DNA of 63,684 nucleotides, the filler included, from Klebsormidium nitens (taxonomy: Eukaryota > Plantae > Klebsormidiophyceae): NCBI GenBank assembly GCA_000708835.1. It is 3 parts of 3 records of this genome, joined end to end, with 100 filler letters (N's around TTAATTAATTAA, not from the genome) between each part and the next. Parts side by side here need not be neighbours in the genome. Positions count along the whole stretch, not along the records: positions 1 to 31,205 come from DF237761.1; positions 31,306 to 61,510 come from DF237771.1; 1 more part is not named here. The stretch is one strand, 5' to 3'. The notes under the pieces were generated by a model. The model saw only the letters and a list, made by a program, of their open reading frames with translations. It was not told the origin of the DNA and made no database searches. How positions within the stretch are numbered: position 1 is the first letter of the stretch; each line of letters opens with the position of its first letter. The translations under genes and the position numbers were made by a program. Of the stretch, positions 17,665-46,723 are shown piece after piece.

Positions 17665-20600
17665 TTAGGCGGCCTCTTTCTTATACAACAGAACCTCCTT
17701 GATGTCCACGCCTTCTAAGTCCCTTACGACGTCATCGAACTGTAGGCATGGAAGCAGATTTTGAGGTTAGAACCATACAATCAGCAGATTTCCAGCTGGG
17801 CTCTGCACAATCCAGAATTTCGAAATTCGGGAGGAGTAGCTTCAAATAGAGGGTTAGTGCTCAACTTTGCCTTTGCAAGAAGCTGCGTGGATGTGATATC
17901 CACAGTTTTGCAGTTTCGCAGATTACAGTGAAGCACTACCGGCAACCGATAAAAGTTCGTAAACAACAGAACAGAGAGCAACAAGCCAGCACATGCGGGT
18001 GCACCTCTGATAGACGAACGAGAACAAAAGAAAGTCTCAACCAAGCCATCACCCTCACTGAATGAGAACCCTGCACCCCCCGCGACTTTCCCTGCCAAGT
18101 CGATCTTAAACTGGAACACGAAAATGTAGAGATGGCACCTCTTGATGCTGACGGACTGCCAACGTCAGCAGCACCCACTCACCTTCACAATGTTCCGCAC
18201 GAAGAAGTCGCCGAATCGCCGGTTGCTTTTCGTCTCTGCTACGTGGATCATGTCCTGAAGGGAAAGGCGCCATGTAAGCAGAGCTGCGACTGCCAGTCCG
18301 AACAAGCGTCTTGAAGCCAGCAAGAAACCAAAGCAGTTCCGCAAACCAAGAGGTGTGTGTAAAGTCGTAGCTCTACCAGGGTCGGTTGCAAAATCCCGTG
18401 ATCAAAGATGCCAACCCAAACGAGCGTTTCTAAGCGGCACTCTCCAGCTGCACAATTGCAACCAGACGCTTCATCTGGAGCGCTCTCAGTTGGCGCGCTT
18501 CCGTCGTCTCACAATTTAGCTCGGCTCATCGCAAAACTCAAAGAACGGCTTCAGTCCATCCTAGAATGGACATCGTGGGACAGTCTATGATGTCCCATAG
18601 ACATAATCTACTATCTATTAGGATAATATCTATCTTAGTATGGTATCTTAACAACCCGGCGACCGAGTGTCCGAGTCACCGCCCTTATGGTCGCCCAGAT
18701 GACCACGTGCATCAGAGGATAGGCAGCGACAGCCAGTCGAAACAAGTTATCTGTGTGTCGCCCGGAACTATGAGGGGGAAAAGAGCTCGTGGGGAAAGAG
18801 GAGAGTGCTCACCCCCTCGATGTAGAAGTCTAGGTCACTCGTCCGGTAGATGCTGCCGTCGACGCTGTCGACAATGTGCGTCTTGTGCTTGTACGTCAAC
18901 AGGTGCGACCTAGAGGAACACGAGGCGCGTGTAAGGAAATGATAAAAAGTTGGGACACTGCAATTGCCCAAGAGTTCCCAAGCTTGGAAAAGGCACTTGT
19001 GCGGTATGTCGTTCTTGTCGACCGAGCAGGTGCATTTAAGAGAAATGAGGCGCAATTGAAAGTGAGGAGCGTTGAGACGAACGCACAACCAGAAAGACTG
19101 GTGCTGCTTCGACTTTCGACAGTGTGAATTCCCTAAAAGCGGCATTTGAGACGGACCTTGGGAGCTTACGCCTTTCAGAACCTCGGACTCTCATCAAAAC
19201 TAACGATTGAGAACGGAGAGGAGGACAAAAGACAAAGCTGATTGAGCAGCCCACAGCCGACCTGGCAATGAGCTTGTTGGCGCCAAAAGACGGGGCAGAC
19301 TAGAAAACTTAGGAGCTCAAGCCCTTCCAGCATTGGAGACAGAGCATTGAGGAAACATCGGTGTCTAATTGTTGCCCGCACCGTTGACAGCCGCATCGGA
19401 CACGAGCAGATGCGAGCTTGGCGACGGAGATGGAACCGCCAAACTCGAATGTCCCGAAACCCCGGCTGAGTGTAGGAGGAAAACCAGAAGGCAGATCGGA
19501 GGAGAAGGAGGGAGCAAAACTGACCACCAAGGAACTTGTGCATGTTTGAAAGGTCTCCCGCTAAAACCCGCGAAGGCACCTTTGCTCTCAACTTGCGTCA
19601 AGAAATTGCGTTCCTGACTCCTCGGACTCTTCGAAAAACGGCGACATTGAAGAGAAAAGGGGAGGTTGAGGAAGAAAGGTTCAAGGAGAACATCGATGGA
19701 TTGAAAGATGTCTCACCTGACGGTCGCCTCGTCGGAGCCGACGAAGGAGGCGAGCTTGGCGACGGAGATGGTGGTGTAGAGCTTGAGGTAGGAGCGGATC
19801 TGCTGCCCGCGCTGCTGTTGCCGGACGTCCGTCAGGAAGATCTTGAGCTGCAGCCGGTACGCGTCCTGAGGAGAAAACAAGATTGTCCGAATCTAAAAAT
19901 GCTCCGAATAACCGAAAGAGTGATCAGTTCGGAGCGGTTGGAGAAGATTGACGTTTGAAGAACAGTGATGAACAAGCGGAGACGGGACCAGTTGATCCAA
20001 GCATAGGACACGTTTCGTCGCTCGTTGTTTCTAGACAAAGCGCAGATATGAATCTTGAGCTGCAGCCAATATGCGTCCTGTGGAGAAGACAAGCTTGACC
20101 TGTTTAGCAACGCTCCAATTGTAGACGAAAGTACCAACACTTCAAAGGCGTGGAAGTTGTTGGAAAGCCCTTGCAAACCGTGGGAAGCCGTTGGAAGCAG
20201 TTTGGAAGCTTTTAAAAAGCCGTTGGAAGCCGTTTGGGAGCTTTTGGAAAGCCGTTGGAAGCCGTTAGAAGCTGATGATTGAGCGGAGATGCGACCATTT
20301 CATAGCAAGCATAAAGAACATTTCATCGCTCTCTGTTCCTAGGCAAGGCTCAGCAATGGATCTTGAGCTGCGCCGTGATTAGTCCTGCAAAGAAGGCACG
20401 CGAGTGTTTACGAAGGAGATAGCTTACGACAAACGCATAGGAGATGCTCACCTGGTTGAAGTTGACGGGGGGTTCGTCCCAGTTTGGCGTGGAAGGCGTG
20501 ATGAATTTCGGGCACGCGAACGAGAAGAGCTCGTCGTATATGGCGTCCACCTCATAGCCTATCCCCTGCAGCCGCTGCAGCTTGTCGCCGTGCTTCTCCC

Positions 20601-45500: not shown

Positions 45501-46723
45501 GAAGCCTGCAGAGACCCCTTCATGTTGGAAGGACTGAATACGAAAAGACTTCGGAGCCACGTAATGGAATGCGCTGAGAACGGCTTACCTGCTGGAAGAA
45601 GCGGCGCGCCTCGTCCTCAAGCAGGCGGCCCTTTTCTACAATGTAGTCAAAGAGCTCCCCTGACTTGACGTACTCCATGACGACATAGATGTCCTGCTGC
45701 GTCTCAATCACCTCGTACAGCCGGATGATGTGCGGGTGCATGAACAACCGCAGGATTTTGATCTCGCGCCGCACTGCAGGGGAAACAGCAACAGCACTGA
45801 GATTGTTCCTTAGAGAAGCCGCTACTTGCTCCAAATTCTTACGAAAGCGTTACAGATTCGGTCAGAAGCGGGTGCTGTTCGTGACATAGGTGGCCTCTCG
45901 TTTGCTTGACTCAGAGAGGGCATATGTCAGTACAATGGGACGCAAGGGAAAAGGAGCGGGCGGCCAGCTATATGCTGCAACTTCGTATACAATCTGTAGC
46001 GAGGATTTCGACGCTTCGAGTCAACGAAGAAAGCTAGAATGCAAAGAGCAAGAAGAGGTAGACCGAACGGGATGACAGGAATCCTTTTTGGATTGAATGG
46101 AGGGGCACTCAGTGGACGACCAACCGGAAGTGGAACTGGAAGTGGAGTTCAAACAGCGAAGAAAGGAATGGGCCGTATGTAGTTGCCAGAGCAGGTTGCG
46201 AGGCCAGTGTCTAGCAGACGAGACAGAATTCTGCAGCATGCTCAAATCACGCAGTCTTGACGAAAAAGCTTCTCTCAGAATTGATGTTTTCTGTGATAAT
46301 GCTTCTTTGCTTGTATGCTGCTGCAAGGCATTCTTCAGAAGGTGGCCTTTTTCAGTGCCTGCGACAGCTCTCCGCACGTCAGAGGGCTGTCAGGTTCTTC
46401 GAGCTTGTCTCATGAGCTCCTTTTCATAGGACACCTGTGAGTGGTAGTCCAGACCCTTACAATAAGCTGCCAGCCCCAAAGTAAAGCTCCTTAAAAACCG
46501 CAAGCAGCGCCGCACCTTTCTCCTCCATGTCCATCGCCTTAATTTTCCGCCGGTTGAGAATCTTGATGGCCACCTTGTGCCCCGTCAGCACATGCTCCGC
46601 CACCTTCACCTTCCCGAAACTGCCAATTCCCAGGGTCTTGCCGAGCCGGTAGTTGGGCAAGATGTTCTCCAACCCTTGCCCCGCAGGGACGGCGGTGCCG
46701 GGGTTGCTCGCAGGGGCCGCCAT
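39553..46723 (-). CDS. SnRK1: SNF1-related protein kinase 1 catalytic alpha subunit (KIN10/AMPK-alpha family), 9 exons
   Basis: Exons 46723-46516, 45773-45589, 43851-43537, 42695-42510, 42164-42075, 41700-41617, 41133-40951, 40615-40352, 39666-39553. Motifs [43 protein letters not shown] (IDPEIL...MGF), KA1/CTD ([13 protein letters not shown]...[21 protein letters not shown]). Confidence 0.97.
42640..43575 (-). repeat. Copies of both flanking splice junctions inside SnRK1 intron 3
   Basis: Exon-3 end plus donor ([22 protein letters not shown]) recurs at about 43375-43445 and 43290-43330. Acceptor plus exon-4 start (CAG|GGGGGTATTTACACGCTGCC) recurs with CAG at 42830-42832 and 43002-43004, and faintly near 43100. 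Confidence 0.9.
43815..44975 (-). repeat. Array of 11 decaying copies (about 100 bp) of the SnRK1 intron 2/exon 3 junction
   Basis: Plus-strand core GTACTCGACGCCGCTGATGATCT at about 43831 (true exon), 43930, 44030, 44129, 44212, 44313, 44415, 44514, 44615, 44716, 44816, 44916. Confidence 0.95.

What the first reader, a model, noticed from the sequence alone, without database searches (positions are those of the whole stretch)
17665..46723. Recurrent splice-junction amplification: introns built from tandem copies of their own exon edges
Seen: at least six exon boundaries in two unrelated housekeeping genes (SnRK1 exon 3 start and end, exon 4 start; eIF3L exon 2 start, exon 5 start, both ends of exon 6) are copied into the adjacent intron. 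Units are about 100-200 bp, straddle the splice site, and often keep the polypyrimidine tract plus AG, or the GT. They carry no transposon hallmarks. Established: tandem duplication across splice sites is a proposed route to intron gain and to decoy or mutually exclusive exons. Inference: either a lineage-wide mutational process that targets splice junctions, or a regulatory layer in which decoy acceptors route transcripts to nonsense-mediated decay. I do not recognise a named repeat class for this.
Basis: partly seen in the sequence, partly recalled or inferred. Interest (0 to 1): 0.82.

Follow-up and report, generated by a model that had tools for sequence, protein, structure and literature searches.

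The report
Splice-junction "mirage" repeats in an alga
In two housekeeping genes of what is likely an early-branching streptophyte alga, short stretches that straddle splice sites are copied one to eleven times into the neighbouring intron; the assembled transcripts ignore these copies, which are likely harmless, decaying duplications of a kind already described in lancelets ("mirages") and in humans.

Summary
Eight exon edges (four in eIF3L, four in SnRK1; one is new and weak) have 1-11 decayed copies in the adjacent intron, against 0 of 64 edges in six neighbouring genes. DNA contigs match where shown, so it is not a mis-assembly. RNA contigs from two studies join all 16 introns at the exon-nearest site, although 7 of 21 scored decoy acceptors outscore the real one.

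The copies look like neutral decay. Against the real gene, non-synonymous sites differ at 11%, silent sites at 28% and intron sites at 25%. Copy against copy, exon-derived and intron-derived parts differ equally. Some copies carry stops, and 6 of 22 lost the AG.

The class has a name: amphioxus "mirages", with human parallels (F7 IVS7, LMNB2, CBS 844ins68). SnRK1 introns 2 and 3 sit at positions shared with a plant-like contig, so the copies did not create them.

Still open: a possible junction bias (7 of 8-11 long local duplications; a post-hoc window), clustering in two genes, and one copy that looks like a diverged allele. I found no green-lineage report. Verdict: new member of a known kind.

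The parts
17665..24687 (-). eIF3L gene, 9 coding exons (24687-24328, 22901-22743, 22207-21879, 21525-21366, 20631-20452, 19865-19717, 18909-18813, 18254-18183, 17739-17665), 526 aa
   Evidence: 8 of 8 joints in RNA contigs X5 and X7; open frame; PF10255 homologues
23068..23105 (-). Copy of eIF3L exon 2 start with CAG; only two silent changes in 36 nt, but the upstream tail is unrelated to the real intron tail (outlier copy)
22970..23380 (-). Two further, more decayed copies of eIF3L exon 2 start (copied junctions at 23002 and 23376)
20632..21102 (-). Tandem array of the intron 4 / exon 5 junction of eIF3L: copied junctions at 20725, 20839, 20935, 21034 (spacing 94-114 nt) plus a head remnant at about 21102-21091
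20052..20394 (-). Two copies of eIF3L exon 6 start (junctions 20077, 20384), both with CAG
19390..19433 (-). Decayed copy of the last ~55 nt of eIF3L exon 6 inside intron 6
39553..46723 (-).
   Evidence: 8 of 8 joints in RNA contigs X5, X6, X9; open frame; relatives
45438..45474 (-).
43852..44973 (-). Tandem array, 11 copies of a ~100-nt unit (about 55 nt intron tail plus about 45 nt exon 3 head), 72-84% identical to the real junction, with higher-order periods 182 and 301; 6 of 11 keep AG
43288..43443 (-). Two copies of SnRK1 exon 3 end; the first keeps GT and 56 nt of intron start
42769..43007 (-). Two copies of SnRK1 exon 4 start (junctions 42829, 43001), both with CAG
26233..26492 (+). Control: intron-only 92-94 nt tandem repeat in intron 2 of the neighbouring 6-phosphogluconolactonase-like gene (name from recall); no significant exon-edge match

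Best explanation
These are mirage-type repeats: local DNA duplications that straddle a splice junction, likely tolerated because the spliceosome uses the site next to the complete exon, likely expanded by unequal crossing-over, and likely decaying without selection. Shown: the copies, their contiguous intron-tail plus exon-head anatomy, exon stubs no longer than about 64 nt, joints only at the exon-nearest site in RNA contigs, and the decay pattern. Inferred: origin by slippage or microhomology-mediated repair, array growth by unequal exchange, and the reason the outer site wins (exon context rather than motif strength).
For: 16 of 21 acceptor copies have a tail that matches their own intron's real tail better than any of 47 other tails, or (one copy) all but one, so they are genomic junction duplicates. 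Copy versus real gene: non-synonymous 71 of 633 sites (0.11), synonymous 48 of 170 (0.28), intron 220 of 864 (0.25). A ratio near one half is what is expected if the copy drifts everywhere and the real exon only at silent sites. In the SnRK1 array, copy-versus-copy divergence is 0.25 in heads and 0.28 in tails, and copy-versus-real heads 0.15. Copies hold stops and changes in a conserved kinase motif; G/C-to-A/T changes outnumber the reverse 45 to 10, and 24 of 64 are CpG transitions. 6 of 22 acceptor copies lost AG. Periods of 100, 182 and 301 nt and two interleaved unit types indicate stepwise turnover. 16 of 16 introns are joined at the exon-nearest site although 7 of 21 validly scored decoys outscore the real acceptor in a 43-intron matrix. 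The same behaviour is reported for mirages, F7, LMNB2 and CBS 844ins68.
Against: Plain random duplication does not predict that 7 of 8 (score 40 or more) or 7 of 11 (score 32 or more) long-unit local duplications span a junction when 17-40% are expected for 60-135 nt units, nor the clustering (8 of 32 edges in two genes, 0 of 64 in six; Fisher p 8e-5, post hoc). At non-CpG sites, 0-fold differences are 20 of 287 and 4-fold 9 of 37, a ratio of 0.29, below the expected 0.5 (few, non-independent sites). Copy-versus-copy 4-fold sites also exceed 0-fold sites (45 of 123 versus 165 of 768), though two of the three SnRK1 4-fold sites are CpG. The copy at 23105-23068 has only silent changes and an unrelated tail. 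4 of 21 copies besides it have no alignable tail.
Confidence: 0.68

Rival explanations
1. Same end product, but made by a mutational process biased to junctions or to local hot spots (for example stalling and template switching at pyrimidine tracts, or breaks at exon borders), which would make mirages a frequent, lineage-typical feature. This adds to the best explanation rather than replacing it.
For: 7 of 8 long local duplications span a junction (p 1e-4 to 0.008 for 60-135 nt units). Four consecutive edges are hit in SnRK1 and three near-consecutive edges in eIF3L. Unit lengths recur near 100 nt. A short shared word (GTCCAC / GTCCCAC) lies near the likely founding join of the SnRK1 array (weak).
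Against: With borderline intron-only hits included and twofold better detection of exon-anchored copies, p is 0.016-0.45 for 60-135 nt units and not significant for longer ones. The window was chosen for this feature. 0 of 64 edges in six other genes are hit. An intron-only repeat of the same size exists (26233-26492).
Confidence: 0.3
2. Some copies are fossil alleles: junction fragments of diverged working alleles or paralogues, left behind by recombination that began in conserved exon sequence and ended in non-homologous intron.
For: The copy at 23105-23068 differs at 2 of 5 four-fold sites and 0 of 31 other sites, and its tail is unrelated. The SnRK1 exon 3 end copies have 7 silent versus 4 non-silent changes. 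There is a mild silent excess at non-CpG sites.
Against: Most copies share the real tail, carry stops or radical changes and directional CpG decay, and in the main array diverge equally in head and tail. The pyrimidine tracts of unalignable tails are mostly not above background (only 20384 is). No second strain was available: X21 looked like a C-to-T converted library.
Confidence: 0.15
3. A regulatory layer in which decoy acceptors route transcripts to nonsense-mediated decay.
For: All 21 acceptor copies tested would give a premature stop if used. 16 of 22 keep AG. RNA contigs cover SnRK1 intron 2 at depth about 10-29 beside exon contigs at 234-326 in three runs.
Against: No decoy joint is listed in X5, X6, X7 or X9. 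AG retention (73%) is no higher than decay at about 11% per site predicts (about 79%). A stop is expected of any intron extension. A copy-free intron in the neighbouring gene is covered at 73.6, and the tool warns that contig depth ranks nothing.
Confidence: 0.06
4. The arrays are assembly artefacts.
For: No listed contig spans the whole SnRK1 array; the DNA runs may be the source sample; no long reads were seen.
Against: Copies are only 67-97% identical to the junction. An independently assembled contig reproduces eIF3L with 0 differences. No substitutions or indels are listed across SnRK1 in four runs.
Confidence: 0.02

Closest known systems
Amphioxus 'mirages' (Adh3, globins BflGb6 and BflGb9, troponin C, PGBD5); PMC3087553 and PMC3902484, passages read
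   Same: Tandem duplications spanning an exon-intron boundary at either end of an exon; units of tens to about 160 bp; many but not all keep AG/GT; normal splicing is reported; minisatellite-like turnover; origin unclear.
   Different: Here the host is a green-lineage alga. Copies are older (mostly 70-85% identity versus 81-100% in BflGb6), many are 1-3 spaced copies rather than arrays, eight edges cluster in two genes, and length polymorphism was not testable.
Human junction-spanning minisatellites: F7 IVS7 37-bp VNTR, LMNB2 100-bp monomer, CBS IVS13, gene 6-16; PMC1557585, abstract and passages
   Same: The first monomer spans the junction and pseudo-sites stay mostly silent; the LMNB2 unit length and copy number (10-15 x 100 bp) resemble the SnRK1 array.
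   Different: Those are donor-side repeats, with identical pseudo-sites in F7; the two arrays here are acceptor-side and diverged. In CBS IVS13 and 6-16 some pseudo-sites are used.
Human CBS 844ins68; PMC2630376, passages
   Same: A 68-bp duplication of an intron/exon junction in which the distal site is strongly favoured and normal mRNA results.
   Different: A single, recent, polymorphic duplication that masks a linked mutation; no such rescue is shown here.
Intron gain by tandem duplication of AG/GT proto-splice sites (Rogers model, as described in PMC3087553 passages)
   Same: Local duplication across splice-like signals.
   Different: The model creates an intron from exon sequence. Here SnRK1 introns 2 and 3 are at positions shared with L080, so they pre-date the copies.

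Membership tests
Mirage (junction-spanning tandem duplication) | Repeat unit spans an exon-intron boundary and the extra copies lie in the adjacent intron | tested here: met
Mirage (junction-spanning tandem duplication) | Minisatellite-like tandem organisation | tested here: met
   Met for the SnRK1 exon 3 and eIF3L exon 5 arrays; the other six sites are 1-3 spaced copies
Mirage (junction-spanning tandem duplication) | Many, not all, units keep the splice dinucleotide | tested here: met
   16 of 22 acceptor copies keep AG
Mirage (junction-spanning tandem duplication) | Regular splicing is undisturbed | tested here: met
   16 of 16 canonical joints and no decoy joint listed; contigs only, so rare forms would be missed
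Mirage (junction-spanning tandem duplication) | Length instability between haplotypes or somatically | not testable with these tools
   No second strain or genome was available
Intron gain by tandem duplication (Rogers model) | Intron at a new position | tested here: not met
   SnRK1 introns 2 and 3 are shared with L080. eIF3L intron 1 may be new, since short relatives' ORFs read through it; eIF3L introns 4-6 were not tested
Intron gain by tandem duplication (Rogers model) | Intron start resembles the downstream exon and intron end resembles the upstream exon | tested here: not met
   None of the six affected introns stands out on both sides; eIF3L intron 1 is not among the top-ranked
Poison-exon / AS-NMD decoy | Alternative site is used in vivo and rises when NMD is blocked | tested here: inconclusive
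   No decoy joint in contigs of four runs; no raw reads and no NMD-blocked sample
Poison-exon / AS-NMD decoy | Sequence constraint on the decoy | tested here: not met
   Head and tail diverge alike among SnRK1 copies (0.25 versus 0.28); AG retention is at the neutral level
Transposon-derived repeat | Dispersed copies or terminal inverted repeats | tested here: not met
   Self-comparison of the window shows these copies only beside their own junction and in direct orientation; the rest of the genome was not available

The most novel reading that the evidence does not exclude
This alga has a mutational or recombinational process that preferentially duplicates splice junctions in runs of adjacent exons, and some copies are captured junctions of diverged alleles. 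Its introns would then record past inter-strain recombination, and its spliceosome would pick 3' sites by exon context while passing over up to six upstream AGs, several with better motifs.
Probability: 0.2. Interest if true: 0.65.

Novelty: new member of a known kind. Interest (0 to 1): 0.32.

Why it matters
The origin of mirages is described as unclear (PMC3087553), and my searches found no green-lineage report. A dense set in a streptophyte alga extends the class from animals to the plant line. The SnRK1 intron, with six AG-bearing near-copies upstream of the real acceptor, is a ready-made natural minigene for asking how 3' splice sites are chosen in that line. If a genome-wide junction bias were confirmed it would point to a real mutational mechanism; if not, this is ordinary decaying intron DNA. 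It also matters for annotation, because such copies can mislead exon prediction and read mapping.

Tried and rejected
Whole-genome test: impossible, no genome is held. Orthologous introns from close relatives: the one metagenome scan returned 80 loci, the best at about 85% nucleotide identity in exon 3 and none matching the introns; most are intronless in this part or are transcripts. Run X21, tried as a second strain, gave two contigs, one with a run of C-to-T differences, and no information on the arrays. Spliced-cDNA origin: copy tails were compared with upstream exon ends; only 2 of 21 ranked first of 48 (23102 and 44435), about what 21 tests give by chance. The 94-nt repeat in the 6PGL-like intron 2 was tested as a ninth mirage and is not significant (score 20, null mean 17). 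Intron cover in RNA contigs was considered as a sign of slow splicing and set aside, because contig depth cannot rank regions and a copy-free intron is covered more deeply. A partial-gene-duplication paper (PMC10487979, passages) concerns multi-exon duplications, not this. A protosplice review (PMC3488318, passages) added nothing specific. Earlier-finding look-ups by place, by sequence and by alga-specific words were empty.
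Full report
Context. The window is about 52% GC and no whole genome is held. eIF3L exon 1 matches streptophyte proteins best. A tree of 24 eIF3L proteins (23 chosen from the 120 hits) places the window's protein between Mesostigma and the clade of Chara, Closterium and land plants (midpoint root, support 88/80, long branches). 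That is the position expected of a Klebsormidium-type alga; this label is recalled and comes from no call. Two N-spacers (about 31207-31305 and 61511-61611) suggest joined contigs, so eIF3L and SnRK1 need not be physical neighbours.

Gene models. RNA-type contigs join all 8 eIF3L introns (X5, X7) and all 8 SnRK1 introns (X5, X6, X9); the runs come from two studies and their RNA status is the tool's guess. Both spliced frames are open (526 and 542 aa). I added six neighbouring genes as controls, giving 48 introns: 29 with listed joints, 4 more in the B3-like gene that fit the record arithmetic of contig X9-24 exactly (and so account for the four joints hidden), and 15 inferred by eye. Names of the neighbouring genes are from recall.

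Is it real and beyond chance? Yes. A self-comparison of the window gave 27 off-diagonal matches; apart from two short ones and one intron-only repeat, they lie at junctions of these two genes. Exon-edge 35-mers hit their adjacent intron in 7 of 96 cases, against 4 of 3972 in other genes' introns and 1 of 540 in non-adjacent introns; tiles further in hit 3 of 91, 0 of 75, 1 of 66 and 1 of 275. Counting the exon 6 end found one tile inward, 8 edges are affected, all in eIF3L and SnRK1 (8 of 32 versus 0 of 64). The edge-versus-interior contrast is expected of any local tandem duplication, so it shows reality, not targeting. Contig X1 reproduces 17400-25861 exactly. For the SnRK1 array the listed X2 pieces stop at 44014 and resume at 44674, with depth in between and no listed differences. 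These runs may be the source sample.

Anatomy. About 26 copies were aligned. The two true arrays are on acceptors: 11 units of about 100 nt before SnRK1 exon 3 and 4 units of 94-114 nt before eIF3L exon 5. The exon-derived part never exceeds about 64 nt although the exons are 149-315 nt. Of 21 acceptor copies, 15 have tails closer to their own real tail than to any of 47 other intron tails, one more is beaten by a single tail, and 5 have no alignable tail. The SnRK1 array has two interleaved unit types and periods of 100, 182 and 301; the real junction groups with distant units rather than its neighbour, as expected of unequal exchange (inference).

How the copies evolve. Pooled over 26 aligned segments (one weak hit dropped, three end columns trimmed), differences from the real gene are 0.11 at non-synonymous, 0.28 at synonymous and 0.25 at intron sites. 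If a dead copy drifts at all sites while the real exon drifts only at silent sites, a ratio near 0.5 is expected. In the SnRK1 array, copy-versus-copy divergence is the same in exon-derived heads (0.25) and tails (0.28), and heads are about half as far from the real exon (0.15). In 15 ungapped heads (gapped and very old copies left out), two carry stops, G/C-to-A/T changes lead 45 to 10, and 24 of 64 changes are CpG transitions. AG survives in 16 of 22 acceptor copies, close to the neutral expectation. Against this reading: at non-CpG sites the 0-fold to 4-fold ratio is 0.29 (20 of 287 versus 9 of 37), the eIF3L arrays show lower head than tail divergence among copies (0.19 versus 0.27 for exon 5), and the copy at 23105-23068 has two silent changes, no others, and an unrelated tail. 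That one copy fits gene conversion from the exon or a captured diverged allele better than simple decay.

Splicing. Every listed joint uses the site next to the full exon, although 7 of 21 validly scored decoys beat the real acceptor in a matrix trained on 43 other introns (a small matrix, and the copy near 44735 was mis-set by one base and not scored). All 21 tested decoys would give a premature stop, which is true of most intron extensions. Contigs drop rare forms and NMD would hide them, so low-level use is not excluded. The pattern matches CBS 844ins68, where the distal site is strongly favoured (PMC2630376, passages), and F7 and LMNB2, where pseudo-sites stay silent (PMC1557585, abstract and passages). 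That short exon stubs make the inner site lose is my inference, from recalled experiments on duplicated splice sites that my search did not retrieve.

Is there a junction bias? From a scan of all 48 introns with flanks (threshold 32, reached by 0 of 80 null regions) I classed by hand 7 junction-spanning and 4 intron-only long-shift duplications (1 strong, 3 borderline). I left out four short-period repeats and one low-complexity exon-exon match. Random placement predicts 17-40% junction-spanning for 60-135 nt units. 7 of 8 gives p from below 1e-4 to 0.008; 7 of 11 with twofold detection bias gives p 0.016-0.45; for 200-300 nt units without a cap on stub length nothing is significant. The window was selected for this feature, so the bias is suggested, not shown.

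Intron gain. Locus L080, an AT-rich plant-like contig, has introns at the same codons as SnRK1 introns 2, 3 and 4, so the copies decorate old introns. Of 20 short eIF3L relatives that look like first-exon read-throughs, 16 stop matching at residues 174-176 (intron 2) and all run across residue 120, so eIF3L intron 1 may be lineage-specific; most relatives read Q-V there, which could be an AG/GT proto-site. The intron's ends do not resemble the flanking exons, so a duplication origin is only a lead.

Comparison with what is known. [quoted passage not shown] Four defining features are met here; length polymorphism could not be tested. Searches (listings only, open-licence library) showed no report from algae or plants; subscription papers are not covered. 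Earlier scan notes pointed me to the name and to the fossil-allele idea; I checked the papers and tested the idea myself.

Verdict. Real, not an artefact, most likely neutral mirage-type duplications: a new member of a known kind, in a lineage where I found no report. The open points are junction bias, clustering and one allele-like copy. Interest 0.32.

Noticed in passing
window 31207-31305 and 61511-61611: Runs of N with a short all-frame stop linker in the middle: likely artificial joins between contigs, so gene neighbourhood across them is uncertain.
   Followed up: no
window 22902-24327 (eIF3L intron 1): Position apparently absent from relatives (their ORFs read through residue 120; most read Q-V there). 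The best copy's tail faintly resembles the end of exon 1 (rank 1 of 48, not significant after 21 tests). A possible lineage-specific intron gain.
   Followed up: partly
window 26233-26492: Intron-only tandem repeat of 92-94 nt starting 20 nt after a donor; the same unit size as the junction arrays.
   Followed up: partly
window 20151-20273: 10-nt minisatellite (about 12 copies) sitting between the two copies of eIF3L exon 6 start.
   Followed up: no
window 24980-25256: An RNA contig in X7 runs from eIF3L through the short intergenic stretch into the divergent 6PGL-like gene; overlapping 5' ends or a bidirectional promoter are possible, but a contig across two genes shows no single transcript.
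   Followed up: no
window 61612-63684: Decayed copia-type retrotransposon pol fragment (integrase and reverse-transcriptase-like, recognised by eye from recall).
   Followed up: no
window 43852-45588 and 27740-28190: RNA contigs cover SnRK1 intron 2 (three runs) and 6PGL-like intron 4 more than most introns; possible retention, not measurable from contigs.
   Followed up: partly
run X21 on window 25929-27281: A contig with about 140 C-to-T differences, as from a bisulfite-converted library; such data could give methylation of the arrays.
   Followed up: no
window 35005-35217: A likely GC-AG intron in the gene at 32394-36200 (inferred by eye, no RNA check).
   Followed up: no
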